Source of the DNA: a virus
Virus record (IMG/VR): IMGVR_UViG_3300045988_115788
Strand: one strand, 5' to 3'
DNA length: 64,000 nucleotides
In this document: positions 33,375 through 60,310 of the stretch, in pieces
Layout of the letters: each line of letters begins with the position of its first letter
Position numbering within the stretch: the first letter of the stretch is position 1
The notes under the pieces: model-generated
Seen by the model: only the letters and a program-made list of their open reading frames with translations
The model's database searches: none
What the model was told of the DNA's origin: nothing
Made by a program: the position numbers and the translations under genes

Positions 33375-33375
33375 C

Positions 33376-34862: not shown

Positions 34863-35300
34863 TTAAATTTTTTGACAAATTGTCAAAATACGTTCTAGTT
34901 CTTCGATAGGTGCTTCATAAAAATCTTTACTCCACACCCAAAAGTCACTATGTTCTGCGCGGCGATATTTAGTTAAAGATTCATCTTCCCATAGTAAATT
35001 CCAACGCTCTTGATGCTTCTTTTGATTAAAGGCCCTGTCTTTGTTAAGACGTTTTAGAATCTTGTCAATTAGTTCGCCACGAAGAAGTCCTTTGTTGTCG
35101 TTATTGATTGCAAAATAATCATAAGCATTTTGAGATGTATTGTAACATAGCGGCCCATTTTCGTTTGAAATAAGACCATTAGTTTCTGTACAAAGCGTTG
35201 CATAAGGCAGATTAACCATGCCTTGAAGTGCTTTTTGATTAAATCTCTTTTTTACAATATAATTATTTTTCATTTTATTCCTTTCTAATTTGCGGCTCAT
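34863..35300 (-). CDS. hypothetical protein immediately downstream of the DGR RT
   Basis: 145-aa ORF overlapping the RT stop by 26 nt (alternative ATG at 35273). No recognisable motif. Confidence 0.45.
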   Translation of the reverse strand: MSRKLERNKMKNNYIVKKRFNQKALQGMVNLPYATLCTETNGLISNENGPLCYNTSQNAYDYFAINNDNKGLLRGELIDKILKRLNKDRAFNQKKHQERWNLLWEDESLTKYRRAEHSDFWVWSKDFYEAPIEELERILTICQKI

Positions 35301-36681
35301 TTAAAATATCGTGTATTTTATCAAAGATGTCCATAGGCTTAGATTTCATTTTAGCAAGATAATCTTTTCGTTCGCAAAGAGGTATGAATCCATTATACAT
35401 CATCGACTCAATTTTCTTTGATTGAAGGTCAAGAAAAATCTTTAATTGTTTTTTAGAACAATAATAGACCCAACCACAATAATCATTCCAAACATATTTG
35501 ATATAACATTTAAAAGGTTTATTTTGTTGACTCAAATATTGAATGAAAGTAGATACAAACTTTTTATCCATATTATATATGGTTCGATAGCAACCAAAAT
35601 GTTTTGCATAGCCTCTCCAACATTGGTATGTTACACAAATATCATCTATTGACATTTTTCCCTCGTCAGCCCATTTCTTGAAAATTTTTAATTTTCTTCT
35701 AATTCTTTTAAGACTATCTTTATTCAATTTTGTTACGATTTTTCCACTATCTGTCAAAGTAAATCTAATTTTCAAAAAAGTAAAACTATGGTGCTTAAAA
35801 GGAGTTATGCGATTTTTCTTTTCGTTTATTTTTATGCCAACAGAATTGGCTAATATTTCAACAAAATTTTTTATCTCTTTTAGTTCTTCAAAAGAATTGC
35901 TGATTACATAACCATCATCCATATATCTGCCATAACCTTTTATGCGAAAAACATCTTTAATGTAATGGTCTATAAGATTAGCATAATCTAAAGCAATATT
36001 TTGTGATATTGGACTGCCTAATCCAACTCCAAATGGCCCCTTAGAATCATGTAAAGTAAGAAATTCATCAATAAATTTATCTCCAAGAACAATCAACTGT
36101 CTATCTTTTATATATTTTCTTAATTCCATTTTTGCACCTTCATGCGGAATTGAAGCAAAATATTTAGAAAAATCATATTGATAAATGCCTCCTTTATAAC
36201 CATACTTTCTATAATGATGCCGCAGTTGCTTTTTTAGCATCTGTATGGCAAAGTGGATACCTTTATTTTTCAACGAAGCTGAATTAGTTGAAACAAAACT
36301 TTTAGAATAAGCTTCTGTCATTATTTCGTTGCAAAAACACTTTTGAACCGCTCTATCTTCAATATTCAAAGCATGTATGTCTCTTATTTTTCCATGCTCA
36401 TTTGTTTTAAAGAAGCAAAAGCCATGAAATTTATAGGCATTAGCATCCATCTTTTTCTTTAATTCAAAAGACCTTATTAACAATTCATTTTCAAAATTTT
36501 GTACTGAAGTTTTCCATCTAACTCCTTTACAACATTCTTTTGATGCTCTATATAAATTTTCAAAAGAATAAACTTCATCATAACTTTTATTTACTATATT
36601 TCTTTTCTTTAAATCTCTTTTTGCTTTACGCCTTAAATATCTTTTCTCATGGCGCTCTTTACTTGTCAGAATTTTCACCAC
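35275..36681 (-). CDS. DGR reverse transcriptase
   Basis: 468 aa. RT motifs YQYDFSKYFASIPH (A), GVGLGSPISQNIA (the [I/L]GxxxSQ hallmark of DGR RTs) and GRYMDDGYVIS (YxDD). Lies adjacent to the TR and avd. Confidence 0.9.
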   Translation of the reverse strand: MVKILTSKERHEKRYLRRKAKRDLKKRNIVNKSYDEVYSFENLYRASKECCKGVRWKTSVQNFENELLIRSFELKKKMDANAYKFHGFCFFKTNEHGKIRDIHALNIEDRAVQKCFCNEIMTEAYSKSFVSTNSASLKNKGIHFAIQMLKKQLRHHYRKYGYKGGIYQYDFSKYFASIPHEGAKMELRKYIKDRQLIVLGDKFIDEFLTLHDSKGPFGVGLGSPISQNIALDYANLIDHYIKDVFRIKGYGRYMDDGYVISNSFEELKEIKNFVEILANSVGIKINEKKNRITPFKHHSFTFLKIRFTLTDSGKIVTKLNKDSLKRIRRKLKIFKKWADEGKMSIDDICVTYQCWRGYAKHFGCYRTIYNMDKKFVSTFIQYLSQQNKPFKCYIKYVWNDYCGWVYYCSKKQLKIFLDLQSKKIESMMYNGFIPLCERKDYLAKMKSKPMDIFDKIHDILNEPQIRKE

Positions 36682-36971
36682 TTTTTATTTTAATTTTTTC
36701 GTATAATTTTTAGTTTTGTTAAAAACTAAGATAATTTGCTAATTACATAACTGGTACCTATGAAATTTGTCTAAAATTATCAAACAACAAACCATGCAAG
36801 AAGCGTCCAGGACACAGTATCGAAAAAATAATTTAGGATGCCAAAGCAGAGCCAAGGATATTTCCCCCTTCTATGAAAAGATTATTTTCACCTAGCAAAA
36901 ACTAGGTTACTTCTCAATCCCAGTAGCCATCTATAACCAAAAAATGGCGGCTACTATTGGCATAGAATCAG

Positions 36972-37583: not shown

Positions 37584-37611
37584 GCCCTGCCACGCTTGCG
37601 CGAAGCAGGGC
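37584..37611 (-). promoter_or_regulatory. GC-rich hairpin 15 nt downstream of the VR1 gene stop (candidate DGR retrohoming hairpin)
   Basis: GCCCTGC (37584-37590) pairs with GCAGGGC (37605-37611). No U-tract follows on the - strand. Confidence 0.4.
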
Positions 37612-37626
37612 TTTGGATTTTACAGA

Positions 37627-38724
37627 TTAAACATAGAAGCAGGGGGCCACCGCATCGCAATACCGCGAGTTGGTGCCGGACGCCGAACCACCAGTGTGCA
37701 CAAAGCAGAAGTAGCCGGAGTTGCCGGAATACGGACTCCTGTTCCACCAATATACAGCACTGTTAGTGTTATTATATTCATATCTAACTTTACTATTCCC
37801 GTTTTTATAATAGTCATACTGTTGTTGTTTGTTTTGTTCATAACTATTAGCGTATTTTCTAGTACCATGAACCTCAAATTCTGCTTCAAGACAAATTGTT
37901 TCAGTTGTTGCAGTTACATAAGAAGAGTTGCTACCACCGCCGCCACCTGTATTATCAGTATACTTCGTAACTGTCTTTAACACATTTTGAAGGTCAGTAG
38001 GTAAAACATCTTTAATTGCAGGAATAATTGTAGAACGCATATAACAACCTTCCCAACCTCCAACATTTGTATCGCTATCACCATAAGACATAGAGAAATA
38101 ACCAGAAGAAGTTATTGGATATTGTTCATATTTGGAATCAATTAGTCCAACAGTTTCGTTATTAACCTTGCCAATACAAAAGTGAATACGATTATTCCCT
38201 TCGATTTCTGCATTGTGGTTAATACCTAAGATATAAGCATCAATAGATAAATTAGAAAACGTAGTATTACCTACTTGCCCGTTAATAATAATCGTTTTTG
38301 TATCCCCTACATTCCAATAATTAGAAGCTTCTCCACTTGCGCTAATTTCACTAATAATGTTCCACGAATTATCATTAAGTGTAGCACTAACAACAGTAAA
38401 AGATATTTCATAAATCTTTAAAGCGTCTATTGTTATGTTTTGCGTTTTAGTAGTCCCTGAGATATTAGTAGAAACTAAATATTCTCCATATTGAAGATTA
38501 TCAAAAGTAGCAATGCCAGTTGTGTTAGTTACAGCTGTTGCGGTTTTAGCCCCACTTAAATTTACAACCTGTCCTGCTGCTCCACCGACAATAGCTACAT
38601 CAATTCTTGCTCCTCCTAAATTTTCCAAGTCTTTTATATTTTCTTTCACCGTGTTGGGATACAGTATATCATAACTATTAGAAGCTTCATTATACTCTCG
38701 CATAGTGATTAGATATTCTGCCAT
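37627..38724 (-). CDS. receptor-binding/tail-fibre protein, primary DGR target
   Basis: 365 aa. The C-terminus ..VYWWNRSPYSGNSGYFCFVHTGGSASGTNSRYCDAVAPCFYV corresponds to TR-encoded PYSDNSNNFCNVNTDGSANNNNSRNCNAVAP. Shares the N-terminal MAEY..T..N....YD.LYP motif with the other RBPs. Confidence 0.85.
   Translation of the reverse strand: MAEYLITMREYNEASNSYDILYPNTVKENIKDLENLGGARIDVAIVGGAAGQVVNLSGAKTATAVTNTTGIATFDNLQYGEYLVSTNISGTTKTQNITIDALKIYEISFTVVSATLNDNSWNIISEISASGEASNYWNVGDTKTIIINGQVGNTTFSNLSIDAYILGINHNAEIEGNNRIHFCIGKVNNETVGLIDSKYEQYPITSSGYFSMSYGDSDTNVGGWEGCYMRSTIIPAIKDVLPTDLQNVLKTVTKYTDNTGGGGGSNSSYVTATTETICLEAEFEVHGTRKYANSYEQNKQQQYDYYKNGNSKVRYEYNNTNSAVYWWNRSPYSGNSGYFCFVHTGGSASGTNSRYCDAVAPCFYV
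37642..37735 (-). repeat. DGR variable repeat VR1
   Basis: Aligns with the TR at offset +670. All 15 hand-counted mismatches are at TR adenine positions. Confidence 0.85.
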
Positions 38725-48854: not shown

Positions 48855-51800
48855 TTATCTTCTCTTATAAGCTCTTTGGTTCGCAATATTGATTACTGCT
48901 TTCACAAAATCTTCAGCGTCATTTCCATTTTTAACATTGGGGAAAGACATTTGAACTCCGTTCATACTTATTCCACTTTGAGTATTGTTTACCAAGCTTT
49001 TTAATACCGAATCAGGAGTTAAAGCGCCCCAAGCAAACAAATTGCGAGTTAAATCATTAGGTATGACGCCATCACCAGAACCTAATACACCCAATTCTGG
49101 GCCGTTTTCTCCTAGAAGACTTAATCCAGGATTGGTATTTTTTTCAGTTCCTTTTTCGTATTTTCCAACACCTGCAACAGTATAAATGTTACCATTTTGA
49201 TTAACTGTGACTGAACCATCATTGTTTTTAGTCCAATAAGAGCCATCGCCGCCAGTCAATGTAGCGTAAGCTTTAGCGTTCTCAATAAAGTCTATACCTT
49301 TTTGAGAGGTGATATTATACGCTCCGCCAGAAGAATTATAACCAGTATATCGTTTTGTTTGACTACCGCCAGTACTTTGACCTGGTTGACTTATTGGTTT
49401 CTCAATTAGTTCAGACTCATAAGTACCGTCAGACTTTACTTTAGTAATTTTATAAGTGCCGCCAGCAGTAGTAACCCTGTCGCCAACTTTAAGCCCTCTG
49501 GGAGCTTTACCGTCATTTCCTACAGAAACCGTAGTTCCTTTAGATTCAGACCAGCTCACATCGGAAGGCGCAGGGTCATATCTAGCACCAGTTCCTTCAT
49601 AATCTTTATTAGTAATGTTATTTACTAACTCAGACTCGTAAGTGCCGTCATTTTTAACCTTGGTTATTCTGTAAGTTCCACCGGCAGTAACAACATTGTC
49701 GCCAACCTTTAAGCCGCTAGGAGCATTACCATTTTTACCTACTTGATAAGTTCTTCCGCTAGATTCAGTTTTAGGTGTTTCTGTAGCGCTAGAAACTTTG
49801 TCGTAAGTGCCGCCACGAGAAGCGTATTCTTTTCGAGTTTCGCTACTGATTTTTTTGGATTCATAAGTTCCGTCTTCATTAACCTTAATGATTTGGAACG
49901 TCCCGCCATCAGTAACTACCTTGTCACCAATTTTAAGCCCCTTGGGAGCTTTCCCATCTTTGCCCGCTTCATAAGTGCCAGAACCAAAGATTTCACCCTT
50001 GTCAATACGCTCTTGCATATTTTGGGCATCTTTAAGCTGTCTCATATATTCTTTATACTCAGAAACAAAATTAGAAAGATTTCTAATACGAGTATCCCAA
50101 TTCATCTTTTCAGAATTTATACCAAATTCTTGTTCGATAATTAGACGATTCTGTTCTTCTTGATAATCATCAACAACATTTTCCCACTCGTTTTTATACT
50201 CTTCCCATTTATTTATCTGTTCTTCAATATTTTTGACAGCTTCATCTTTTAGCTTTTCAAGACGGTCTTTCTCATCTTCTAGTGCTTTTTCACGTTCATA
50301 GCTTTCAAGATTTTTCTGCGCTTCACTAATTTCATCTATATCATCCGCATATTGGAATCTACCATCTTTGTAGACATAAACTTTCTTTTGTCGCGCTTTC
50401 GCTAGTTCATCTTGAAGCTCTTGTAACTTGATATTGTCTTCAATTTTATCGTTCTCTTCTTCAAGAGCTTTTATTTTTTCGTCGTAATAATCTTCCCAAT
50501 AATCTTTTTCTTCATTGAGGTCATCAATACGACGCTGTGCATCTTTAGCTACTTGCTCAAAAAGAAGTTCATACTTTTCTGTTTTGTTTTGAAGACCTTC
50601 TTCAAGCTCTTCATAATAGTTTTGCCATTCTTCTTTAGCCTTTTCTGCCGCTTCCGTTGCGGCATCAGCAATAGATTGAAATAGGTCTTGTGCATCGCCC
50701 TCAAGACTCCACCAACTGCTTTGAATTTCCCGAATAATAGTATCATTTTCATTGATACCCAATTTACGATAATATTCAGCTTGTTTGTGAAGTTCGGCTT
50801 GCATCGCTCTAATCTGAGCAATCTGCTCTTCTTCTGTTGCGCCATTCTTTTGCATTAGGAACAATCTATGTTCCATAATGTCAATTTGTTCAGAATAGAG
50901 TTTGTTTTGCTCTTCTAATTGCTTAGTAAAAGCTTCTGTGCGCTTATTTTGTGCATCAATAACAGCTTGAGCTAAACCTGCTCCAGAGCCAATCTTTTTG
51001 CTGATTTCTTTCGCTTGCTTCTCAAGGTCAGACTTCTTTAAATCAGAATAAGACCCCTTGGCGGTTTCGTATTGTTTAGTAACAGATTTAGTCCAATCAG
51101 CATAAGCATTGTTTACTTTTGGCAATTCAGGCTGTTTATTTTTATCAAAATCGCCCCAATGAGTCTTTTCAGAAGTAGACAATTTGCTAAGTAACTGGCG
51201 TGTAGTATCATTGTTATATACCTCTGCACCAGAAGGAAGTTTAACAATTTCTGGGCCTTCTTCACCAACAAGAATAGTACCTTCTTTAGTAACCGTACCA
51301 CCCGTAGCCATGCCGTGGATTGTATCTATATATTGAGCATTAGAAAGAGCGCCACTCCCAGCAGAAGCCGCTCCAGACGCAGAAGCTTTTAGATTTCTTA
51401 ATGCTGCTGCCGCCGCATTAGCTTTACCAACAATAGCAGTCAGGCTAGAAGATAAACCACTTACATTTAAAGTAAGATTACCAACACTTCTTGCAGATGC
51501 CGCAAAGCTTCTTAGTGCCGCACTTGCACTATTCGCCGCAGTTGCTACTTTTCTTAAAGCGCCAGAAGTTCTATTTGCTGGCCCAGCAACTTTACCCACA
51601 GCAGAAGACGCTTTAGAAGCACTAGAAGAAATTCTACTTAAAGTAGCACCGCAGCTAGACGCAGAAGTAGCTAGACTAGCGACTCCTGCACTGGCAGAAC
51701 TTGCCGCGCCCGAAACAATACTGAGAGAGGTAGATAGTAATGCGCCACTCCCTGCCGCAGAAGACAGGTTACTTGCAATAGAACTAATATTGACAGACGC

Positions 51801-54800
51801 TTGAGACGCCGCCATACTAACGCTATTCATGCTGCCAGCAATAGTTAGCATACTAGATGCCGCATTGCTTAGAGAAGCTGTAGCGGTTGTTACATTAGCC
51901 GCAAAAGTACCTAATGCAGTCCCCGCATTTCCAGAAGCAGTCCCTAGACTATTCATGTGAGTGACAGATTGACTAGACTGCGTAGTAAGAGTGATTAGTG
52001 CGGATGCCGCATTGTGAGCGCCGTCAGTGATGCCAGACATAGCATTGGAGGCACTTGTTGCAATAGAAGATAGAGAAGTATCTACTGTTGTTGCGCTAGT
52101 GCTAAGATTGGTCATGCTTTCGCTTACTTGACTGACAAGAGTATTTACTTGGACAAGCGTTCCTTTGACTCCAATAAGAGAGCCACTAACAGCAGTCAAG
52201 CTACTTGACGCATTAGAAAAAGCTTGTGCTAATCTTTGTCCTGCGTCACCTGCCGCTTGACCAAAATCAGCGATACTACTTGCCATTTTACTTGCAACAG
52301 TATTGATACTATTGAAAGTTTCAGTAACGCCAGCAGTTTGAGATTTTAAATTTGCAAAACCGCTAGAAAGTCCTGTTGCGCTATCATGAGCACCATCTAA
52401 CGCCGCTTTAATATTGTCTCTTAATACTTGACACTGTTGAGCCACTTCTACAACAGCATCACCAACAGACCTTATATTATCAACAGTGGTTTGAATAGAC
52501 GTAGCCATACTAGAGAAATTGCTACTAACAGAAGTAGACATGTTTCCTAGTCCCTGATTCACAGTACCAATAGCAGTAGAAATTTCTACAATCCGTCCTG
52601 CAAAATCAGTAAAATTAGAAGAAAGAGTTGCGGCATCTCCTGCAAATTTGCTAAACGAATCTCCCAGCCCATCAATCAATCCTGAATATTTTTCAATACC
52701 AGAAGAAAATACGTCAAAAGATTCAGCAATATTGTTTAGGCCACTCGTATCAACTTGAGCAGATTCAACAATTCTTTGATTAGCTTCTTCAAACTTTTCT
52801 GCTGCTTTAATTGCTTCTTCACCTATTGTTTTATAAGCATCGGAAGCACCTGCAACATCTACAGTTTGAACACCTTCATCAACAGCATCATTTACCGCTT
52901 GTTGGGCTTCACCAACCTGCTTCGCACCCTCTTTAGCATTTTCGCCAAGTTGTTTGTAGCTGGTTCCAGCAGCTTCCATTCCTCCGACAGCGCCAGATAA
53001 CAATTCACTAGCACTGCCAAACATTTTGCCGCCCTTTTCTGCTGTTTTGCCGCCTTCTTCTACACCTTTGCCGCTTTCTTTTGCCGCTTCGCCAAAATTA
53101 AATCCTTCGCCTCTCATGCCTGGGCCAACAAGTTGTTTGTTATTGATAATATCAATCCACTCAACCCACATTTTGGCAACAGTATCGCCATCTTCAGCCG
53201 CTTTTCTTGCTTGGTCAACAAGACTCTTCATCGCGTCGGTTTCAAAAACCTTGGGGTCAATTTTGCCGCCTTCCATAATGGTTTTCATTACATCGACCCA
53301 TTGTTTTGCGGCTTCATCTCCCTCTGCGGCAGATTTTTGTAATTGTTCACTAAATTGAAGCGCGCCATCACCATTTATATCAAACTTGGCTTCGTTAAGC
53401 TTGTCAATAACAGAAAGAATTTTTTGTGCGTATTCGTCACCGTTATCTGCGGCTTTCCTAAGATTATCTATCCAAGGGCCAAAAGCATCATCTTTAAGAT
53501 TAACAAAATCTATTTCGCCAGACGCAATTCCTTTAATGATTTCCATTAACTTCTTTGCGCCTTCATCCGTTGATTCAGCAAGAGTTTTGCCAAATCCTTC
53601 TGCAAAATTGGAAGAATCAGTTAAGGTTTTTGCTAACTCTCTAGTTTTGTTATCTATTTTAGAAATTTCATCGGCACTTTTCTTGGTTTCTTCAGCTGTA
53701 TTTGCATACGCCTCTGCCAACAATTTTTCTGCTTGTTCTTTGGACTTCGTGACGCCTAAACTTTCTAGCAAAGTGGCTAGACGGTCTTTATCCATATTTG
53801 CAAGTTGCGCTTCATTCATTTGGGTCAGCAAATAATCTTTGGCAATTTGTGTCATTGCCTCATCATATTTTTCTGCTGTCACCGAACCATCTTCAAACAT
53901 TTGTTGAAGGTCTGTAAGCCCCTCAGAAACAAAACCAGAAGCAGATAGAGAATTAACAGTATTAAGAACAGTTGTTAGTTCTTCATCAGTAGATTTTCCT
54001 TTTTCGCCAACACCTTGCATAGCATCAGCGAACCCTTGCAAAGCATCTTTCGCTGAATTTACAGCAGTGACTTGTTGAGCGTTAGTAATCTCACCATAAG
54101 CTTGAAGTTCAAAATCTGGGTCAAGTTCTCGCAAATATTTATACATATCTGCGTGTTTTTGTGTCCACTCATCCCCAGAAGAAACGGCTTCTTGTAACTG
54201 TTCTTCGTATTTTAATAAGGTGGCACTTAAATCATCTACTTGTTTATTAACATCTTCAATATTCCACTGACCACCAAGCAAACCAGCTACGCCATCTTTT
54301 TTCATAGTGATTTGCCCTGTTTGTAACATTTGCTTTTGGACTTCTTGTAACTCTTTTAAATCTTTTAAATCTTCTTTGTAGCTAGGGGTAGAAACACTTT
54401 CTAGTGGCCCTTTGCCTGTGTTCGCACCTACATAGGTGTGAACTCTGCCTTCTTCATCTGTCCATTTTTGTGAAGTATCTTCGCCAGGTGTTTCATCACC
54501 AAACATTTCTACGTTACGAATTTTTTCTTGAACTTCGTCAAGCTGTCCTTCAAAGTCCTTTAAGCGCTGTTGCCAAATTTGAACAAATCTTGGGTCTGCA
54601 CCAGACTCTTGCAACCGTTGAATTTCTGATTGACAAGTAGATATATTATCTTCTAGTTCTTCAGCAGAAGCATTAAGCTTTCCTAAAGGAGACTCTGCTT
54701 TAGTTATGTCATAAGCTTGTTTAATAAGAACTATTAGAGCGGCAATAGCAATAGACAAAGGTAAAGCGGCTTCACCAAGGGAGGAAAAGAAGCCAGATAC

Positions 54801-55766
54801 TTTTTCTCCCATTGAACTACTAGCTTCTCCAACATCGTCCATAACATCGCCGACATCATCAATGTTGTCCTTAACTTCATCAGCAATGTCTCCCATGTCA
54901 CCGAGCAGATTTTCTGCATCGCTTATACCATCACTAAAGTTACCAAATTTATTGCCGACATCAAATAGTTCATCAAAAGAATCGCTTACATCATCAATAC
55001 CGTCGGTAATATTTTCAGTAATATCGCCAACTTCTTCAAGCCCATTTCCAAAATTGCCAAATTTATTGCCAACATCAAATAATTCGTCAAAAGAATCTCC
55101 TGTCTCTGTTACTGTGTCTTTGACATTGACTAATGTATTTTCAGCATTTTGAATACCGTTTCCAAAATTACCAAACTGATTACCAACATCAAACAATTCA
55201 TCAAAAGAAGATTCTACAATATTTACCGTATCCGCTGCACCGCTAAAAGCATTAGAAATTGTATTTCCTGCGTTACTTGCGGCATTAGCTATATTAGACA
55301 CTGTGTTTGCTGTATTAGAAGCAGCAGTTGTTACCGTGTTTATTGCGTTTGCCGCAGTTGTTGCTCCTGTACCAATATTAGCAAAAATATCACCAAAATT
55401 AGCAAACTGAGAAACCAGTTTACTAATAGTTGGAGCAAATTTGCCAATACCACCAGTAAGAACACCAGTAAGAACGCCAAACTGCGTTGCTACTCTGCTA
55501 ATATCGCCTAGGGGTCCTTCAGAAGTCAGTGTTGAAAACACACTATTAAGTACATCCAATGCAGACTTCATTGCATCAGAATTTAAAACAGAAGTTGCAA
55601 ACTCCTGAAATGTTGATTTGAGGTTTGAAAGTTTTCCTTCAAAACTCTCCATATATCTTTCATTCTCTTGAGCGGCTGACCCTTGAGAATTAAGTGCTGT
55701 TTCAGTCGCGGCAATAGCAGTATCGAAATTATCCATAATTGCCGCAAGATTCTGGCTCTGATTAGC
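48855..55766 (-). CDS. tail tape measure protein, exon 3
   Basis: Begins ANQSQNLAAIMDNFD... when joined to exon 2. Long helical and low-complexity protein with internal repeats. About 2303 aa in this exon. Confidence 0.85.
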   Translation of the reverse strand, partial: ANQSQNLAAIMDNFDTAIAATETALNSQGSAAQENERYMESFEGKLSNLKSTFQEFATSVLNSDAMKSALDVLNSVFSTLTSEGPLGDISRVATQFGVLTGVLTGGIGKFAPTISKLVSQFANFGDIFANIGTGATTAANAINTVTTAASNTANTVSNIANAASNAGNTISNAFSGAADTVNIVESSFDELFDVGNQFGNFGNGIQNAENTLVNVKDTVTETGDSFDELFDVGNKFGNFGNGLEEVGDITENITDGIDDVSDSFDELFDVGNKFGNFSDGISDAENLLGDMGDIADEVKDNIDDVGDVMDDVGEASSSMGEKVSGFFSSLGEAALPLSIAIAALIVLIKQAYDITKAESPLGKLNASAEELEDNISTCQSEIQRLQESGADPRFVQIWQQRLKDFEGQLDEVQEKIRNVEMFGDETPGEDTSQKWTDEEGRVHTYVGANTGKGPLESVSTPSYKEDLKDLKELQEVQKQMLQTGQITMKKDGVAGLLGGQWNIEDVNKQVDDLSATLLKYEEQLQEAVSSGDEWTQKHADMYKYLRELDPDFELQAYGEITNAQQVTAVNSAKDALQGFADAMQGVGEKGKSTDEELTTVLNTVNSLSASGFVSEGLTDLQQMFEDGSVTAEKYDEAMTQIAKDYLLTQMNEAQLANMDKDRLATLLESLGVTKSKEQAEKLLAEAYANTAEETKKSADEISKIDNKTRELAKTLTDSSNFAEGFGKTLAESTDEGAKKLMEIIKGIASGEIDFVNLKDDAFGPWIDNLRKAADNGDEYAQKILSVIDKLNEAKFDINGDGALQFSEQLQKSAAEGDEAAKQWVDVMKTIMEGGKIDPKVFETDAMKSLVDQARKAAEDGDTVAKMWVEWIDIINNKQLVGPGMRGEGFNFGEAAKESGKGVEEGGKTAEKGGKMFGSASELLSGAVGGMEAAGTSYKQLGENAKEGAKQVGEAQQAVNDAVDEGVQTVDVAGASDAYKTIGEEAIKAAEKFEEANQRIVESAQVDTSGLNNIAESFDVFSSGIEKYSGLIDGLGDSFSKFAGDAATLSSNFTDFAGRIVEISTAIGTVNQGLGNMSTSVSSNFSSMATSIQTTVDNIRSVGDAVVEVAQQCQVLRDNIKAALDGAHDSATGLSSGFANLKSQTAGVTETFNSINTVASKMASSIADFGQAAGDAGQRLAQAFSNASSSLTAVSGSLIGVKGTLVQVNTLVSQVSESMTNLSTSATTVDTSLSSIATSASNAMSGITDGAHNAASALITLTTQSSQSVTHMNSLGTASGNAGTALGTFAANVTTATASLSNAASSMLTIAGSMNSVSMAASQASVNISSIASNLSSAAGSGALLSTSLSIVSGAASSASAGVASLATSASSCGATLSRISSSASKASSAVGKVAGPANRTSGALRKVATAANSASAALRSFAASARSVGNLTLNVSGLSSSLTAIVGKANAAAAALRNLKASASGAASAGSGALSNAQYIDTIHGMATGGTVTKEGTILVGEEGPEIVKLPSGAEVYNNDTTRQLLSKLSTSEKTHWGDFDKNKQPELPKVNNAYADWTKSVTKQYETAKGSYSDLKKSDLEKQAKEISKKIGSGAGLAQAVIDAQNKRTEAFTKQLEEQNKLYSEQIDIMEHRLFLMQKNGATEEEQIAQIRAMQAELHKQAEYYRKLGINENDTIIREIQSSWWSLEGDAQDLFQSIADAATEAAEKAKEEWQNYYEELEEGLQNKTEKYELLFEQVAKDAQRRIDDLNEEKDYWEDYYDEKIKALEEENDKIEDNIKLQELQDELAKARQKKVYVYKDGRFQYADDIDEISEAQKNLESYEREKALEDEKDRLEKLKDEAVKNIEEQINKWEEYKNEWENVVDDYQEEQNRLIIEQEFGINSEKMNWDTRIRNLSNFVSEYKEYMRQLKDAQNMQERIDKGEIFGSGTYEAGKDGKAPKGLKIGDKVVTDGGTFQIIKVNEDGTYESKKISSETRKEYASRGGTYDKVSSATETPKTESSGRTYQVGKNGNAPSGLKVGDNVVTAGGTYRITKVKNDGTYESELVNNITNKDYEGTGARYDPAPSDVSWSESKGTTVSVGNDGKAPRGLKVGDRVTTAGGTYKITKVKSDGTYESELIEKPISQPGQSTGGSQTKRYTGYNSSGGAYNITSQKGIDFIENAKAYATLTGGDGSYWTKNNDGSVTVNQNGNIYTVAGVGKYEKGTEKNTNPGLSLLGENGPELGVLGSGDGVIPNDLTRNLFAWGALTPDSVLKSLVNNTQSGISMNGVQMSFPNVKNGNDAEDFVKAVINIANQRAYKRR
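49400..49975 (-). repeat. three tandem about 40-aa coding repeats in the tape measure C-terminal region
   Basis: GKDGKAPKGLKIGDKVVTDGGTFQIIKVNEDGTYESKKIS / GKNGNAPSGLKVGDNVVTAGGTYRITKVKNDGTYESELV / GNDGKAPRGLKVGDRVTTAGGTYKITKVKSDGTYESELI. Confidence 0.8.
54925..55215 (-). repeat. three tandem coding repeats (xSFDELFDVGNxFGNFxxG) in the tape measure
   Basis: Read directly from the translated ORF and its nucleotide repeats. Confidence 0.8.
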
Positions 55767-56146
55767 CATTATTAACTAAATTAAATGTTTTTCAACATTT
55801 CTAGTTTCTGACTATATCTTCACTATTTCGTTAAATAGTGTCAGTGCGCTTCGGATTGCTCCTACTCTACTCGCTTCGTCCGCTTATGCGTCTTATTCTG
55901 CCCATACTATAACACAGACAGTTACATTTATCAAGAATTTTTTCTTGATTGCTTTCGATAGTCGATGAAGGTTATACCGTATTTCAACGGCATCTTCCCT
56001 GCGGATTAACCATATATTTTTATCTCTTTTACAATCTCTTAGTTAATTACTCTAAGCCCCTATCTATGTTACCATGATAAGTTTGTGTATAAAACTTTAG
56101 GTTGTCCCCGTCAATTCACACTGAACAGGCGCTAACTTTAGAGTCC
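55767..56146 (-). mobile_element. group I intron (ORF-less) in the tape measure gene
   Basis: 380 nt lie between ..FLNVQAG and ANQSQNL... The 5' exon GCAGGU pairs with guide GCCUGU (+ 56125-56130), giving a U.G pair. Q AAUCCGCAGG (+ 55998-56009), R-like CACUGACACUAU (+ 55836-55847) and S AAGAUAUAGUC (+ 55810-55820) are present. Ends in G. Confidence 0.8.
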
Positions 56147-56704
56147 ACCTGCTTGAACGTTTAAGAAATACTTTTTTTGGTCTTCATCCAAAGTATTCCA
56201 TTTACCAGCCAAATCGCCTAGCGTATCATATAAAGAACGAAGATTGCCTTTTTCATCTTTAATTGCAATTCCGTGGTCTTTATAAAACGCAATTAGTTTT
56301 TGACCTGTACTTGAACTGTCATCAAGAATTTGATTATATCGAGACTGTACCGACACCAAAGCTCTCGATACTTTATTGCTGTTTCTAGTAATTTCTGTAC
56401 CTGCTGTTAGAAGACCTAGTGTTTCCTCGTAGGTAACGTTGCCAACAGCCATCGCAGAAGAAGCGTTACCGATAGATTGAGACAAATCACTAGAAGAAAC
56501 TGCAAAATTATTGCTAACAGAATTTAATGCGTCCACGACGTGCGTCGCTTCACTAGCAGGCTTATTAAATGCTTTTAATTGAGAAATAATAAAACTTGCC
56601 GCGTCACCAGCACTCATAGCATCATCTGCTACGTTTTGGAACATAGTTGCGGTTTTTGCTAAATTTGCACTTTCGGTATCTGAATATCCAGACTTTTTAA
56701 ATTC
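56147..56704 (-). CDS. tail tape measure protein, exon 2
   Basis: In-frame from EFKKSGYSDTESANLAKTATMFQNVADD... to ..FLNVQAG. Matches the TP901-type tape-measure core by eye. Confidence 0.8.
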
Positions 56705-57787
56705 CTATCTATTAAGCAGTGTCGTTAATACTGCTCAGAGTAAAAAGACAATATTTTTTCTTTGAATGTACCATCATCTATTTGCCAATAAGGTATTCTT
56801 AATAAAGGTACATGATGAGTTTTGCAATAATAATCTTTAATTTTATCATTTTTTTGAGTTTCTTTAAAATATTCTTGGAAATGCCTTCCTCCATCAACTT
56901 CTATTAACTTTTTGTTTTCTTTATTGAAATTCAAGCAAAAATCAAAAGGAAGACATCTTTTATTGCCCCTACAATCAGTTATTTTAAATTCTCGTTTAAA
57001 AGGAATATTTTGTTCATTTAAAAAATCAGCGACTATTTTTTTCAAACTGCTTAATTTTCTATGTCCAGAAGCATCATAATCACCTGTATTCAATGCTCTA
57101 AATTTTTCAATATCTCGCAAAAAATTATTTCTACAAACAAAATATTGCACACCAAAATCGTCTTCTATTAAAATATTAGTTTTATTAAAAGTCGGTTTAT
57201 TATATCCTTTTATTTTTCTTGGTTTTATATCTTTAATAGGGGTTATTACTTTAAAGCCTTCTTTTTCAAAATCTTCTATGATTTTTTCTAAATCAAGCCT
57301 ACGCTCTTTCCAACTAGCGGAATGGGCGCATTTTGTACAAAGTCCTGGGAAAACTTGCCGTTTTAAAGTATCCCACTTTACATCGTAACGAGAATTACAT
57401 TCTCTACAAAAAACACTCACGACAATTCTTGCTTTTCCTGATTTTTTTATATTTCTAAAAGAAATCAAATGAATTTTATTATCATCACAAAACTTATAAA
57501 TTTCTTGTTTTGTTTTTTCTTGCATTTTTTACTCCTTCTTATACTCTCGCATAAGTTTAGACTATATCTTCATCCTAAAAAAGGATGTGGGGCACTTCAA
57601 GTTCACTTGAACCTTACAGATATTATTTCAATCTTAGTCGTTGAACCATATTTTTAAATCAATAAAAACTGGATGCTGATTTGCCAATTCTTAGCGTTGT
57701 TACTCTTTGGTAGCTAAGACTCTAAGGTTTGTTTCAGCAATTCACCCCATTCACTTACTTATATTACTATAAGCTCAACCAAATCAT
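56705..57787 (-). mobile_element. group I intron with endonuclease ORF in the tape measure gene
   Basis: Lies between ..SEMIDAAT and EFKKSG... Exon GCAACU pairs with guide GGUUG (+ 57776-57780). P-like GAAUUGCUGAAAC, Q-like AAUCAGCA, R GUUCAACGACUAAGA (+ 57632-57647) and S GAAGAUAUAGUC (+ 57560-57571) are present. The ORF lies 3' of the core. Ends in G (AUAG|GAA). Confidence 0.8.
56725..57525 (-). CDS. intron-encoded putative homing endonuclease (Zn-ribbon N-terminus, Vsr/DUF559-like PD-(D/E)XK C-terminus)
   Basis: 266 aa with CRECN..CTKC and, C-terminally, LPFDFCL...LIEVDGGRHF, which resembles the DUF559/Vsr-type nuclease core. Family assignment is tentative. Confidence 0.5.
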   Translation of the reverse strand: MQEKTKQEIYKFCDDNKIHLISFRNIKKSGKARIVVSVFCRECNSRYDVKWDTLKRQVFPGLCTKCAHSASWKERRLDLEKIIEDFEKEGFKVITPIKDIKPRKIKGYNKPTFNKTNILIEDDFGVQYFVCRNNFLRDIEKFRALNTGDYDASGHRKLSSLKKIVADFLNEQNIPFKREFKITDCRGNKRCLPFDFCLNFNKENKKLIEVDGGRHFQEYFKETQKNDKIKDYYCKTHHVPLLRIPYWQIDDGTFKEKILSFYSEQY

Positions 57788-58165
57788 AGTTGCGGCATCA
57801 ATCATCTCAGAACCAGTTCGTCCAACTTCTCGTCCCATAACTTGAAGCTTCTTAACGTACTTATCGAGACTGTCACCCTGTAAATCTGATACCTTTTTAA
57901 ATTCTGTTAGTGATTTATCAACAGTTAAAATTTCGTTAGCAAAAGACTTGAGAACTCCAATACTAGAGTTCAATACCATGTTTGCTTCTTGCAAAGTTAG
58001 TCCAGATGCCGCCGCACTCTTGTTCATAGAATTTAAATTCTTTGTTGCCGCAGATGTATCAAGACTGACTTTGCTTCCTTTTCCTGTTACTTTTTCAAGT
58101 TGAGATTGTATATCAGAAGTATCAAGCTCAACCCCTACCAATATCTTCCAATCAGATGAAGCCAT
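57788..58165 (-). CDS. tail tape measure protein, exon 1
   Basis: MASSDWKILVGVELDTSDIQSQLEKV... to ..GSEMIDAAT. The tool ORF then runs into intron sequence (MIWLSL*). Confidence 0.8.
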
Positions 58166-58181
58166 AGAAACATCTCCCCTT

Positions 58182-58706: not shown

Positions 58707-58737
58707 TAATCTGTTTGGTGGAGACTCGTAACTTCAA

Positions 58738-60033
58738 TCATAGAGGAGCTAAATCATCTCTTGTATCCACCGTACACCTTTCAATTAAATAAGTTTTGTT
58801 TGTTTCTTTTAATTTTAATTTCTTAAAACTGACAGAGCCTTTGTTAACCTTTTGGCCATTTAAATTTCTAATATCAAAGAAACCTGATGCCCTTCTACCA
58901 AATATAAAATATTCGTAATTCTGATATTCTACTCTATCAAAGAGTCTAAAACCTTTGACTGTATACTCAGCTTGATTACGTTTTCGGATGCCACCTTTTA
59001 ACGTATTAGCTTTATATAGCTGACGATTATGACATCTGACCTTTTTATAGTAAAAATACTCTCCACTACTCTTAGCCTTTGGATTTCCACTAATACAACG
59101 TGCATCTAAATAATGTGTCTTTGGTAGATTGTTTTTTATACGAGTGTTTTTCGTAATATAACCATAAGTCATAGAAACATTTGCATAAATTTCCTTTAGC
59201 CGATTATAAAATACCCATCTCATAACATTCATAAAGGCCGCGTGTTTATAAGAGTTTGTTATTTTTGGCTCCCAACCCCAAAGCCTATTAGCTTCTTTTT
59301 TGTGATATTTACTATCATTGCAAGTGTTACAAAGTGTAATCAGACTTGAGGGTTTGTTTGTATGGTCGCCTTTCCAGTAGGCATGGTGGTGTGTTACAAG
59401 AATTGAATCTTTCGATTTACCTTTACACCATTGACAGGTATAATTATCTCGGTGGAAAATATATTCCCTGATATTCCAACCTGTAAGCTCACCTTTCTGA
59501 TAGTCCATCCCTTTTGGAATGGGTTCACCTTCCATTTGAGCTTTAAGCAGTTGCATATCAAACGATGCTGTTTCTACTACAATTTTTGTAATAGGCAACA
59601 TCTTGTGTACTTTTTCTACCATTGCAAAATGAGTCTGAATCTTATGTTCAATACTTGGAGTCAACCAACCTTTGTGTTTGCTGGATACTCGATTGTTAAA
59701 TCGTCTTTTTCTGTAACGGGTTTTACGATTTCGCCTTGAGTGACGAAATTTTCTTCGTGCCTCAAGTAATTTTGTTATATCGTTACGAAGTTCTACATCA
59801 GCTTCAAACAATACTTTATCTTTTGTAGTTGCAGATAATCCAATATGCTTAGAACCGGCATCTACACCTAATGTAATATTTTGTATGCAATTTGTTGTAT
59901 TATACAACAACTGTATCGTAAATGGACAACGCTTAATAACCTTGGCTTTGTTTATCTTTAAAAGCCTTCTTACCTTTCCGTGTCTGTTTGTTGGCATAAG
60001 TGGTTGTCCGTTTTTGTTAAGTACATATACCAT
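58738..60033 (-). CDS. iscB: IscB (OMEGA-family RNA-guided nuclease, Cas9 ancestor type)
   Basis: 431 aa from ATG 60033 (AAGGAG 9 nt upstream). PLMP motif NGQPLMPT, RuvC-I LGVDAGSKHIG, Arg-rich bridge helix RRKFRHSRRNRKTRYRKRRF, RuvC-II IVVETASFD, HNH HRDNYTCQWC...LITLCNTCN, and RuvC-III THYLDARC. Confidence 0.8.
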   Translation of the reverse strand: MVYVLNKNGQPLMPTNRHGKVRRLLKINKAKVIKRCPFTIQLLYNTTNCIQNITLGVDAGSKHIGLSATTKDKVLFEADVELRNDITKLLEARRKFRHSRRNRKTRYRKRRFNNRVSSKHKGWLTPSIEHKIQTHFAMVEKVHKMLPITKIVVETASFDMQLLKAQMEGEPIPKGMDYQKGELTGWNIREYIFHRDNYTCQWCKGKSKDSILVTHHHAYWKGDHTNKPSSLITLCNTCNDSKYHKKEANRLWGWEPKITNSYKHAAFMNVMRWVFYNRLKEIYANVSMTYGYITKNTRIKNNLPKTHYLDARCISGNPKAKSSGEYFYYKKVRCHNRQLYKANTLKGGIRKRNQAEYTVKGFRLFDRVEYQNYEYFIFGRRASGFFDIRNLNGQKVNKGSVSFKKLKLKETNKTYLIERCTVDTRDDLAPL

Positions 60034-60042
60034 AACAAACAC

Positions 60043-60310
60043 TCCTTTTCTTTAATAGTGATATGTTGTATGCTATAAGCCAGTACATATCAAACTGTAA
60101 GATACCTTCGCCTATGTTAATAAGAGGTTTTATATCGGCAACACTGTTCCTACCCATCAGAACTGTTTAACCACCGACCTTAGAGCAAAGGGCTAGGTAT
60201 AACACCCTTTGGTAACTATATATTCTCTTTTAACGTAGTGTTTGAAACACTTAGGCTAGTCAATAAAAGCTTTTGCAAGCCTGCGACTTTAGTCGTGGGT
60301 TATTGACTAT
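60043..60310 (-). ncRNA. candidate IscB omega-RNA
   Basis: About 265-nt ORF-free region directly 5' of iscB, the known location of IscB omega-RNAs. Hand-folded helices: TAGTCAATAA (60309-60300) pairs with TTATTGACTA (60266-60257), enclosing CGAC-UAAA-GUCG and GCUU-GCAA-AAGC hairpins. The ends are not determined. Confidence 0.55.

What the first reader, a model, noticed from the sequence alone, without database searches (positions are those of the whole stretch)
56705..57787. Group I intron with a Vsr/DUF559-like endonuclease ORF inside the tape measure gene
The tape measure N-terminal exon (..GSEMIDAAT) is separated from EFKKSGYSD.. by 1,083 nt. These contain clear P/Q/R/S core elements (R GUUCAACGACUAAGA, S GAAGAUAUAGUC), a guide GGUUG pairing with exon GCAACU, and a 266-aa ORF placed 3' of the core. 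The ORF has a zinc ribbon and a C-terminal FDF...IEVDGGRH motif resembling PD-(D/E)XK Vsr/DUF559 nucleases, rather than the common GIY-YIG, HNH or LAGLIDADG homing enzymes. To my knowledge introns in tape measure genes are uncommon, and this endonuclease type is rare among characterised homing endonucleases.
Basis: partly seen in the sequence, partly recalled or inferred. Interest (0 to 1): 0.7.

Follow-up and report, generated by a model that had tools for sequence, protein, structure and literature searches.

The report
Mobile self-splicing introns in phage tail gene

Summary
Joining the flanks gives a tape measure protein (TMP) that aligns without a gap across the junction to the uninterrupted TMP of Enterocloster phage PMBT24. 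Rfam's group I model does not hit it. However, 12 homologous introns support the P1-P8 structure, including the exon-guide helix P1 and the P3/P7 pseudoknot: 99.4% of cells paired, 30 of 61 pairs with compensatory changes, 0 of 500 shuffles as high.

The 266-aa ORF lies after P9. Its C-terminal domain folds like the I-Bth0305I catalytic domain (TM 0.67-0.74). It belongs to the very large zinc-ribbon/CapR-like plus EDxHD/Vsr-like outgroup described in 2025, with about 67,000 cluster representatives.

A second, ORF-less group I intron (56146..55767) splits the same gene. Related gut phages carry introns at six or more TMP sites, with presence/absence differences, as expected for homing.

TMP introns have been documented since 2008, so the rarity claims do not hold. 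Verdict: real, ordinary in kind, a new member of a known kind. Splicing and cleavage are inferred, not measured.

The parts
57788..58165 (-). TMP exon 1 (126 codons, ...GSEMIDAAT); last base U forms the U.G pair of P1
56705..57787 (-). Group I intron 1 (1083 nt, IA-type with P7.1/P7.2), carrying the homing endonuclease gene after P9
57776..57785 (-). Internal guide sequence. GGUUG (57780..57776) pairs with exon CAACU (P1). GAUUU (57785..57781) can pair with exon 2 GAAUU (P10).
   Evidence: P1 paired 8/8, U.G invariant, pair col3/20 AU:4 UA:3 GC:1. P10 read by eye.
57757..57774 (-). P2 hairpin GCUUAUA-GUAA-UAUAAGU (GNRA loop)
   Evidence: 4 of 6 pairs with compensatory change
57744..57749 (-). 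P3 5' strand UGGGGU; pairs with GCCCCA at 57593..57588
57674..57739 (-). P4 (UGCUGA 57739..57734 / UCAGCA 57679..57674) enclosing P5/P5a (57719..57689)
57646..57672 (-). P6/P6a
   Evidence: MAFFT shifts the window copy by one column here.
57632..57646 (-). R element GUUCAACGACUAAGA, containing the P7 5' strand A-(C bulge)-GACU
   Evidence: P7 is 100% paired; pair 164/242 is UA:11 CG:1.
57599..57634 (-). P7.1 (57634..57618) and P7.2 (57614..57599), the peripheral hairpins typical of subgroup IA
   Evidence: helices 10 and 11, 7 of 10 pairs compensatory
57588..57593 (-). P3 3' strand GCCCCA
57571..57587 (-). P8 hairpin CAUCCU-UUUUU-AGGAUG
   Evidence: 5 of 6 pairs compensatory
57559..57571 (-). 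S element GAAGAUAUAGUC(U) = J8/7 plus the P7 3' strand AGUCU
57532..57555 (-). P9 hairpin (57555..57538), followed by the Shine-Dalgarno AAGGAG (57537..57532) of the endonuclease ORF
56725..57525 (-). Homing endonuclease ORF, 266 aa. N-terminal CxxC...CxxC zinc ribbon module plus a second module. C-terminal Vsr-like nuclease domain (about residues 156-266) with D195, E209, D211, H215, D227, K230.
56705..56735 (-). 3' hairpin AGCAGU-AUUAACGAC-ACUGCU, spanning the ORF stop codon, then the tail UAAUAGAUAG ending in the terminal G (56705)
   Evidence: the hairpin covaries by eye in 9 homologues, and all end in G before GA(A/G)TT or CAATT.
56147..56704 (-). TMP exon 2 (186 codons, EFKKSG...NVQAG), PhageMin_Tail domain
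55767..56146 (-). P1 is CAGGU/GCCUG, P10 is GUUAGC/GCUAAU (6 bp), P3 is CAGUGUG/CGCACUG, S is GAAGAUAUAGUC, and the terminal base is G.
   Evidence: (39.1 bits, E 6e-11 with a model built only from intron-1 homologues)
48855..55766 (-). TMP exon 3 (ANQSQNLAAIMDNF... to the stop); the spliced TMP is 2615 aa

Best explanation
The window comes from a large gut siphophage, distantly related to Enterocloster phage PMBT24. Its tape measure gene is transcribed as three exons separated by two subgroup-IA group I introns.

Intron 1 (57787..56705):
- It folds into the canonical P1-P9 ribozyme.
- The guide GGUUG pairs with the exon end CAACU, with a U.G pair at the splice site.
- Exogenous G bound in P7 attacks the 5' splice site.
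- After P10 forms (GAUUU with GAAUU), the terminal G at 56705 is exchanged and the exons are ligated. This restores ...EMIDAAT-EFKKSG....

The endonuclease:
- Its 266-aa ORF sits downstream of P9, with its own Shine-Dalgarno sequence.
- It has zinc-ribbon/CapR-like DNA-binding modules and a C-terminal Vsr-like (EDxHD-type, PD-(D/E)XK-fold) nuclease domain.
- During co-infection it would cut the intron-less TMP allele near ...GCAACT|GAATTT....
- Repair from the intron-bearing copy would then copy the intron in (homing).

Intron 2 (56146..55767) is an ORF-less relative. It splices the same way but has lost its endonuclease gene.

Shown by computation: exon continuity, the RNA structure with covariation, the nuclease fold and conserved residues, and presence/absence differences among relatives. 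Inferred: the splicing chemistry, DNA cleavage and homing.
For: 1. Exon continuity. The spliced protein aligns to the PMBT24 TMP at 37% identity, E 2e-81. There is no gap at either junction: EMIDAAT|EFKKSG against EMVEAATEFKKMG, and NVQAG|ANQSQ against SLIGGKTQ. tblastn gives single-piece hits spanning residues 3-401.

2. RNA structure.
- On 12 homologous introns, 99.4% of 643 cells are paired and 30 of 61 pairs have compensatory changes.
- No shuffle of 500 reaches these values. Slid controls give 33-40% paired and 3-7 compensatory pairs.
- RNAalifold finds P3-P6, P7.1, P7.2, P8 and P9 unaided.
- The exon-guide helix P1 itself covaries (AU:4, UA:3, GC:1), and the U.G pair is invariant.
- Every homologue ends in G.

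3. Selection on the ribozyme. Against the 97.9%-identical phage L016, the ribozyme core plus tail (282 nt) has 0 differences. Exons and the ORF differ by 1.6-2.9%.

4. Independent detection of intron 2. A CM built from intron-1 homologues finds intron 2 at 39 bits (E 6e-11) and nothing else in the window. It also hits the other TMP interruptions in relatives and has no hit in intron-less PMBT24.

5. The endonuclease.
- PHROGs annotated 'homing endonuclease' and 'intron encoded nuclease' match.
- AlphaFold2 models have pLDDT 87.5 (whole protein) and 88.6 (domain).
- Foldseek to 3r3p_B gives probability 1.00 with TM 0.67/0.74. It also matches NGO0050, RAP-domain proteins, TnsA and the R2 endonuclease domain.
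- D195, E209, D211, G212, H215, D227, K230 and R243 are invariant in 25 homologues.

6. Mobility signature. The site at aa 126/127 is occupied in L002, L005-L008, L009-L014 and L016-L019. It is empty in L021, L022 and PMBT24.

7. Homologues of the same endonuclease sit inside a join-annotated terL in Staphylococcus phage SEP1 and inside a split nrdE in Lactococcus phage P1048.
Against: - Rfam RF00028 gives no hit on either intron, even at E<=10. This is weak evidence. The same scan misses the SEP1 terL and P1048 nrdE interruptions. The model does work in this setup: it hits a neighbouring intron type in L006 at 25.5 bits.
- No RNA data are available, so splicing itself is not shown.
- The endonuclease has no sequence-level match to any PDB chain, 3R3P included.
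- This copy has Lys at residue 162, where 20 of 21 homologues, including the 98%-identical L016 copy, have Glu. This is probably the first 'E' of the EDxHD motif, so the enzyme here may be weakened or inactive.
- Foldseek E-values are modest (about 1e-3 to 1e-2). TnsA ranks above 3R3P by E-value.
Confidence: 0.86

Rival explanations
1. The intron still splices, but its endonuclease is inactive or attenuated in this copy. The intron would then be fixed and vertically inherited, at a late stage of the homing cycle. Intron 2 has already lost its ORF altogether.
For: - K162 replaces a Glu conserved in 20 of 21 homologues; the near-identical L016 copy has E162.
- Window and L016 differ by 11 amino acids from 23 nt changes in the ORF. 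All are at or before residue 170, so constraint on the N-terminal part looks relaxed.
- Intron 2 has no ORF. L021 has a full 375-aa endonuclease of the same family at that site, and L017 has a truncated remnant.
Against: - The ORF is intact with a good Shine-Dalgarno sequence.
- The K162 form is the representative of a cluster of 114 member sequences.
- All other invariant residues are kept.
- The I-Bth0305I authors say only that the equivalent Glu 'might also participate in catalysis' (PMC3239194).
Confidence: 0.3
2. There is no splicing. A free-standing endonuclease gene has split the TMP gene into separately translated pieces ('genes in pieces'), and the RNA motifs are incidental.
For: - HEG-split phage genes exist, as discussed in PMC10448857.
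- The Rfam group I model is negative.
Against: - There are 30 compensatory pairs, including pairs in the exon-guide helix.
- The ribozyme core shows no substitutions while the exons diverge.
- The join is exact, in frame and gapless.
- Exon 2 has no start codon at the junction; its first in-frame ATG is 20 codons in.
- Exon 3's ATG, one codon before the exon start, lies inside the intron's 3' tail.
- ORF-less intron 2 has the same architecture.
Confidence: 0.03
3. The ORF product is better classed as a generic restriction-endonuclease-fold (TnsA/DUF2726-like) nuclease than as a member of the EDxHD family. It could also serve another role, such as a maturase or a defence nuclease.
For: - TnsA and the R2 RLE domain rank first by Foldseek E-value.
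- Pfam hits are to DUF5889 and DUF2726, and DUF559 matches only 1 of 25 members.
- No HMM hit to 3R3P.
- BFVD names include 'Restriction enzyme'.
Against: - The best TM-scores over a whole small domain are to 3r3p_B (0.67/0.74) and NGO0050.
- The pattern D...E-x-D-G-x-x-H...D matches the Vsr/DUF559 style, not D...ExK.
- The ORF always lies inside introns at conserved sites of essential genes.
- PMC12350094 reaches the same assignment for this architecture.
- Both families share one superfamily, so the distinction is one of degree.
Confidence: 0.1

Closest known systems
Group I introns TMP-IVS1/2/3 in tape measure genes of Bacillus cereus-group prophages (Tourasse & Kolsto 2008, PMC2504315)
   Same: - IA1/IA2 group I introns at several sites within one TMP gene.
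- Related cores adapted to different sites by changing P1/P10.
- ORF-less and HEG-bearing versions both occur.
- Presence/absence differs among related phages.
All of these are seen here.
   Different: Different phage lineage (gut Clostridia-type phages rather than Bacillus prophages). There is no detectable nucleotide similarity to phage records. At least six sites are used across relatives. I did not compare the insertion positions with IVS1-3.
I-Bth0305I, prototype of the EDxHD homing endonucleases (PDB 3R3P; PMC3239194)
   Same: It is encoded in a phage group I intron. Its C-terminal Vsr-like catalytic domain of about 100 aa is the best whole-domain structural match (probability 1.00, TM 0.67/0.74, 20% identity). 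Equivalent Asp, His and Asp residues are conserved.
   Different: - No sequence or profile hit.
- The N-terminus is a zinc ribbon/CapR-like module, not NUMOD/HTH.
- The ORF lies after P9, not in P5.
- The host gene is TMP, not recA.
- The first Glu is Lys in this copy.
[quoted passage not shown]
   Same: Same architecture: about 60-aa zinc-binding modules followed by a Vsr-like domain of about 100 aa. Among the homologues here, CapR matches 7, DUF4379 8 and DUF723 3 of 25. The family is very large (67,450 representatives). Most are found in phage group I introns.
   Different: The window protein is a short form with two N-terminal modules. On its own it reaches only a weak Zn_ribbon_4 hit (E 0.083). 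I did not align it directly with that paper's sequences.
ICP1 (Vibrio phage) TMP intron with an HNH-3 HEG, splicing verified by RNA-seq/RT-PCR (PMC10448857)
   Same: A HEG-bearing intron interrupts the TMP gene. HEG content varies between isolates while the surrounding context stays the same.
   Different: The HEG there is HNH-type, the host is Gram-negative, and splicing has experimental support there but not here.
Phage T4 td/nrdB/nrdD(sunY) and Staphylococcus/Bacillus phage IA2 introns
   Same: By my reading they share the P7.1/P7.2 extensions, the R and S consensus sequences, an ORF placed in a peripheral loop, and an ORF 3' end that overlaps a structural hairpin. This rests on general knowledge of subgroup IA; the structure here is.
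   Different: The HEG families differ (GIY-YIG and HNH in T4). I did not assign the subgroup by a formal classifier.

Membership tests
Group I intron | P1 helix between the 5' exon end and an internal guide, with a U.G pair at the splice site | tested here: met
   helix 1 is 100% paired in 8/8 sequences, U.G is 8/8, and one pair shows AU/UA/GC covariation.
Group I intron | Conserved core P3-P8 with the P3/P7 pseudoknot | tested here: met
   all helices 97-100% paired. Compensatory changes occur in P3, P4, P5, P5a, P6, P7 and P8. Slid controls give 33-40% paired.
Group I intron | Terminal G at the 3' end, and P10 pairing with the 3' exon | tested here: met
   G precedes the exon in all 9 distinct homologues. 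P10 of 5 bp (intron 1) and 6 bp (intron 2) was read by eye, and was not tested statistically.
Group I intron | Guanosine-binding P7 with a bulged nucleotide, and conserved J8/7 (R and S elements) | tested here: met
   A-(C)-GACU / AGUCU is invariant in 12/12 apart from one compensatory change. Searches show motif enrichment. The binding function itself is inferred.
Group I intron | Match to the Rfam RF00028 covariance model | tested here: not met
   no hit at the gathering score or at E<=10. Controls: annotated phage interruptions are also missed, and a neighbouring intron type in L006 is hit at 25.5 bits.
Group I intron | Self-splicing with GTP/Mg2+; ligated exons in RNA | not testable with these tools
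   No RNA data are available. Exon continuity is inferred from the gapless protein alignment.
Group I intron, subgroup IA | P7.1 and P7.2 between P7 and the P3 3' strand | tested here: met
   helices 10 and 11, 7 of 10 pairs compensatory. The split between IA1 and IA2 was not decided formally.
EDxHD / Vsr-like homing endonucleases (I-Bth0305I) | Vsr-like alpha/beta nuclease fold in the C-terminal domain | tested here: met
   3r3p_B at probability 1.00, TMq 0.67, TMt 0.74, rmsd 3.8 over 106 columns. The domain model has pLDDT 88.6 and pTM 0.82.
EDxHD / Vsr-like homing endonucleases (I-Bth0305I) | Composite motif E...D...x...H...D | tested here: inconclusive
   D195, H215 and D227 are invariant. 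The first Glu is Lys162 in this copy but Glu in 20 of 21 homologues. The residue equivalence to I-Bth0305I rests on motif order, not on a residue-level superposition.
EDxHD / Vsr-like homing endonucleases (I-Bth0305I) | Detectable sequence homology to I-Bth0305I or Vsr | tested here: not met
   no PDB hit to 3R3P or 1VSR at E<=10. Pfam DUF559 matches 1 of 25 members and RAP 2 of 25.
EDxHD / Vsr-like homing endonucleases (I-Bth0305I) | N-terminal NUMOD/HTH DNA-binding region | tested here: not met
   no NUMOD or HTH hit. Instead there is a CxxC...CxxC zinc ribbon, and homologues hit DUF4379, CapR and DUF723.
CapR-like + Vsr-like outgroup HEGs (PMC12350094) | Tandem zinc-binding modules of about 60 aa, followed by a Vsr-like domain of about 100 aa, encoded in phage introns | tested here: met
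   family-level CapR, DUF4379 and DUF723 hits; multiple matched stretches per protein; the Vsr-like domain; intron context. The window protein's own N-terminal hit is weak.
Homing endonuclease (functional class) | Site-specific cleavage of the intron-less allele, and intron homing | not testable with these tools
   Indirect evidence only: occupied and empty alleles of the same site occur among related phages.
Phage tape measure protein | PhageMin_Tail/TMP domain, very long protein, position after the tail genes | tested here: met
   PF10145, E 8.4e-23; homology to annotated TMPs with the same RuvC-then-TMP gene order.

The most novel reading that the evidence does not exclude
The conserved N-terminal domain of the TMP in this gut-phage lineage is an extreme intron hotspot.

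- At least six insertion sites are used across relatives: after aa 89, 118, 126, about 186, 240 and 312.
- A single gene can carry up to four introns.
- In several relatives, two group I introns of different types are separated by a 24-nt micro-exon encoding SEMxxAAT.
- In those relatives, the upstream intron carries a small membrane-protein ORF with a promoter-like site upstream, instead of a homing endonuclease.

If all of these splice correctly, this would be an unusually dense case, and an example of an intron serving as a carrier for a non-nuclease 'moron' gene.
Probability: 0.45. Interest if true: 0.5.

Novelty: new member of a known kind. Interest (0 to 1): 0.3.

Why it matters
- Annotation. 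Without the splice model, the essential TMP is called as three fragments plus a 'hypothetical' or wrongly named 'HNH' protein. Rfam's group I model misses these introns, so automated pipelines will keep doing this.
- The endonuclease. The locus adds a clean, covariation-supported example of the very abundant but biochemically untested zinc-ribbon/Vsr-like homing endonucleases. Natural occupied and empty target alleles are available (window and L016 against L022, L021 and PMBT24), and so is a natural K162/E162 pair for testing the role of the first motif residue.
- Scope. It does not change what is known about intron biology.

Tried and rejected
- Rfam scans: gathering threshold on the whole window, and E<=10 on 55500-58300. 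No Intron_gpI hit. I do not treat this as a refutation, given the controls.
- Megablast of the locus against 50,697 phage records: no match.
- Exact pattern from the intron core against 185,579 bacterial and archaeal genomes: 0 hits. No prophage copy was found in representative genomes.
- phmmer and hmmsearch of the ORF, of the full alignment and of the C-terminal-domain alignment against PDB sequences: no relevant hit. Only the structure comparison linked it to 3R3P.
- Full-length model against PDB: diluted scores, with TnsA first. I repeated the search with the C-terminal domain alone.
- Other introns in the window: the lone S-like motif at 13532(+) and the lone R-like motif at 21606(+) are unpaired. 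My CM finds nothing else at E<=1.
- Intein or group II intron: rejected. The insert has stop codons in frame and a group I core.
- Recent horizontal transfer as the reason for the identical intron core in L016: rejected. The embedded ORF differs by 2.9%, as much as the exons, so purifying selection on the ribozyme explains the pattern better.
- The MAFFT alignment of intron-2 relatives (A3) was too poorly aligned at the 5' side for pair counting. I used a four-sequence RNAalifold run instead.
Full report
**1. The observation**

Everything lies on the minus strand. An ORF of 132 aa (58165..57767) reads MASSDW...GSEMIDAAT and then runs into stop codons. A second frame resumes at 56704 with EFKKSGYSD. 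Between them lie exactly 1083 nt (57787..56705).

- The quoted R element GTTCAACGACTAAGA is at 57646..57632.
- The S element GAAGATATAGTC is at 57571..57560.
- The guide GGTTG is at 57780..57776.
- The 266-aa ORF is at 57525..56725 and is preceded by AAGGAG.

Degenerate R and S motifs each occur three times in the 64-kb window, against about 0.25 expected. Only the two TMP interruptions have both, in order, on one strand.

**2. The host gene and the junctions**

Exon 2 carries a PhageMin_Tail domain (PF10145, E 8.4e-23). While checking it I found a second interruption. Exon 2 ends ...NVQAG at 56147, and the long ORF (48855..55769) is preceded by 380 nt that contain another GAAGATATAGTC.

Joining 58165..57788, 56704..56147 and 55766..48855 gives an open 2615-aa protein. 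Its first 450 residues align to the uninterrupted TMP of Enterocloster phage PMBT24 at 37% identity (E 2e-81). There is no gap at either junction:
- EMIDAAT|EFKKSG against EMVEAATEFKKMG;
- NVQAG|ANQSQNLAAIMDNF against SLIGGKTQVDVVTAILKNF.

tblastn against 50,697 phage records gives 147 TMP hits, many of them single pieces spanning both junctions. PMBT24 also has a RuvC-like gene directly upstream of its TMP, as the window does.

**3. Is it a group I intron?**

Rfam's RF00028 finds nothing, either at the gathering score or at E<=10. I therefore tested the structure directly.

*Collecting homologues.* Homologues of the intron ORF were traced to their contigs. A conserved core pattern was scanned in IMG/VR. 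Together these gave 12 distinct intron sequences at the same TMP site (alignment A2).

*Unaided prediction.* RNAalifold predicts P3, P4, P5, P5a, P6, P7.1, P7.2, P8 and P9 on its own.

*Full model.* I counted pairs for a full model that adds P1, P2 and the P3/P7 pseudoknot:
- 99.4% of 643 cells are standard pairs;
- 30 of 61 pairs show changes on both sides;
- no shuffle of 500 reaches any observed measure;
- sliding the partners by 1-3 columns drops pairing to 33-40% and compensatory pairs to 3-7.

*Splice-site helix.* P1 itself covaries: exon CAACU/CUACU/CGACU pairs with guide GGUUG/GGUAG/GGUCG. The U.G pair at the splice site is invariant. P7 keeps its bulged nucleotide and its G-C pair in all 12 sequences, with one compensatory U-A to C-G change.

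*3' end.* All homologues end in G immediately before the exon. A hairpin spanning the ORF's stop codon covaries by eye.

*Selection.* Against the 97.9%-identical phage L016, the ribozyme core and tail (282 nt) have no differences. Exons, the ORF and intron 2 differ by 1.6-2.9%.

*Independent model.* A covariance model built from A2 finds the second interruption, which was not in its training set, at 39.1 bits (E 6e-11). It finds nothing else in the window at E<=1. It also hits the other TMP interruptions in relatives and has no hit in intron-less PMBT24.

*Why the Rfam negative is uninformative.* The same scan misses the join-annotated interruptions of Staphylococcus phage SEP1 terL and Lactococcus phage P1048 nrdE. 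Yet it does hit a different intron type in relative L006 (25.5 bits, E 2.8e-4).

**4. Intron 2 (56146..55767, no ORF)**

The features read from the sequence are:
- P1 CAGGU/GCCUG;
- a 6-bp P10 GUUAGC/GCUAAU, which fixes the 3' splice site;
- P3 CAGUGUG/CGCACUG;
- P4 with a bulged A;
- P6, and a long P7.1/P7.2 extension;
- P8, S and P9 with a GAAA loop;
- a terminal G.

RNAalifold on four relatives recovers these helices, with 13 compensatory pairs.

The relatives are instructive. L021 has this intron at the same site with a 375-aa endonuclease of the same family. L017 has a truncated remnant of that nuclease domain at the site. L022 has a 92%-identical core at a different site (after aa 186) with a re-tailored P1.

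**5. The ORF**

*Sequence searches.*
- Pfam gives only weak hits: DUF5889, DUF7255, DUF2726 and Zn_ribbon_4.
- PHROGs gives phrog_559 (E 2e-21, labelled 'HNH endonuclease'), phrog_9084 ('homing endonuclease') and phrog_7140 ('intron encoded nuclease').
- There is no HNH motif.
- Across 25 homologues, L192, D195, E209, D211, G212, H215, D227, K230, L241 and R243 are invariant.
- Sequence and profile searches of the PDB find nothing relevant.

*Structure.*
- AlphaFold2 models are confident: pLDDT 87.5 for the whole protein, and 88.6 with pTM 0.82 for residues 156-266.
- For the C-terminal domain, Foldseek's best whole-domain match is the I-Bth0305I catalytic domain, 3R3P chain B (probability 1.00, TM 0.67/0.74, 20% identity).
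- It also matches NGO0050, RAP-domain proteins, TnsA and the R2 endonuclease domain. All have the PD-(D/E)XK fold.

*How common it is.*
- Among the homologues, Pfam CapR matches 7, DUF4379 8 and DUF723 3 of 25.
- BFVD gives 97 matches at E<=1e-3. Names include 'Group I intron-associated VSR homing endonuclease', 'Homing endonuclease', 'Group I intron protein', 'DUF2726' and 'Treble clef zinc finger'.
- A profile search finds 67,450 cluster representatives at E<=1e-3.
- tblastn finds 254 isolated phages with homologues.

*One caveat for this copy.* Residue 162 is Lys where 20 of 21 homologues, including L016, have Glu. By motif order this is the first E of EDxHD, a residue that the I-Bth0305I paper says 'might also participate in catalysis' (PMC3239194).

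**6. Mobility signature**

Mapping the spliced TMP onto relatives gives the following intron occupancy:

| Phage | Introns after TMP residue |
|---|---|
| window, L016 | 126, 312 |
| L002 | 118, 126, 240 |
| L005 | 89, 118, 126, about 186 |
| L006 | 118, 126, about 186, 240 |
| L017 | 89, 118, 126, 312 |
| L021 | 118, 312 (126 empty) |
| L022 | about 186 only (126 and 312 empty) |
| PMBT24 | none |

Such occupied and empty alleles at conserved sites are what homing predicts.

**7. Comparison with the literature**

- Group I introns (IA1/IA2) at three sites of the TMP gene were described in B. cereus-group prophages in 2008. That study includes the same phenomena of related cores re-targeted through P1/P10 and of HEG loss (PMC2504315).
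- TMP is called a frequently interrupted gene, and splicing of the ICP1 TMP intron was shown by RNA-seq and RT-PCR (PMC10448857).
- The EDxHD family was defined on I-Bth0305I (PMC3239194), and its CapR-like outgroup was described in 2025 (PMC12350094).

The finding is therefore a new member of known kinds.

**8. Mechanism, and what is shown**

Shown by computation:
- exon continuity;
- the ribozyme secondary structure, under selection;
- the nuclease fold and conserved residues;
- allele polymorphism among relatives.

Inferred from established group I and homing-endonuclease biology:
- G-initiated two-step transesterification;
- translation of the ORF from its own Shine-Dalgarno sequence;
- a double-strand break, or a nick, at the intron-less TMP site during co-infection;
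- recombinational copying of the intron.

Confidence is about 0.9 that the RNA is a splicing group I intron. It is about 0.7 that this copy's endonuclease is active.

Noticed in passing
window 58709-60307 (-): HEARO/omega RNA 60307..60097, IscB-like ORF 60042..58738: - A complete IscB-omega RNA (OMEGA) unit: RF02033 at 152 bits, and a 434-aa RRXRR+HNH protein. No TnpA-like gene was noted next to it.
- It is a clean insertion of about 1.6 kb relative to the 95-98%-identical phage L016. There the upstream gene's stop codon abuts the RuvC start codon (...TTTAGTATA|ATGAAAAT...).
- The presumed guide position, just 5' of the scaffold, is flanking phage DNA.
- The empty site continues with ATGAAA, which from memory would fit an NWRRNA-type TAM. 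This suggests RNA-guided re-targeting of empty sites, but it is not verified.

   Followed up: partly
window 28150-38724 (-): RT 36681..35275, RT-2 RNA 36924..36674, TR 36972-37065, VRs 28165-28258 and 37642-37735: A diversity-generating retroelement.
- An RVT_1 reverse transcriptase, with the Rfam RT-2 RNA just upstream.
- A 94-nt template repeat.
- Two variable repeats (82-84% identical to the template) at the 3' ends of two paralogous ORFs (29205..28150 and 38724..37627).
- Many differences fall where the template has T on the + strand (A on the coding strand).

   Followed up: partly
window 2395-2467 (+): A RAGATH-18 RNA (67.6 bits) lies immediately upstream of a DnaE-like DNA polymerase III alpha gene at 2519-6403.
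   Followed up: no
L006 3001-3739, L002 3044-3739, L005 3001-3739: - Relatives carry a further group I intron of a different type between ...ARTG and SEMxxAAT. Rfam RF00028 scores it at 25.5 bits, starting exactly at L006 3001.
- This leaves a 24-nt micro-exon (L006 3716-3739) before the endonuclease-bearing intron.
- The 5' splice site appears to follow a C (ACCGGC| pairing with GCCGG) rather than a U.

   Followed up: partly
L006 3360-3701, L002 3455-3709: The extra intron in relatives encodes a hydrophobic, membrane-like protein of 84-113 aa instead of an endonuclease. A promoter-like site (TTGACT ... TAGAAT or TATAAT) precedes the ORF.
   Followed up: no
window 57042-57040 (codon 162 of the endonuclease ORF): The window copy, like cluster P0001 with 114 member sequences, has Lys162. 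L016 and 20 of 21 aligned homologues have Glu there, which is probably the first residue of the EDxHD motif.
   Followed up: partly
L021 2153-3280; L017 about 5200-5440; L022 420-1016: - The site of the window's ORF-less intron 2 holds a full 375-aa endonuclease of the same family in L021.
- In L017 it holds a truncated remnant of that nuclease domain.
- L022 has a 92%-identical core inserted at another TMP site (after aa 186) with a different guide sequence.

   Followed up: partly
window 58182-58706 (-): A RuvC-like Holliday junction resolvase gene sits directly upstream of the TMP gene. The arrangement is conserved in PMBT24 and in the metagenomic relatives, and is unusual for a tail gene module.
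   Followed up: no
L023 472-1443 (Staphylococcus phage SEP1); L024 1886-3208 (Lactococcus phage P1048): RefSeq labels homologues of this Vsr-like endonuclease 'HNH endonuclease', inside a three-piece terL and a split nrdE. The query protein has no HNH domain, so the name looks like a propagated mis-annotation.
   Followed up: partly
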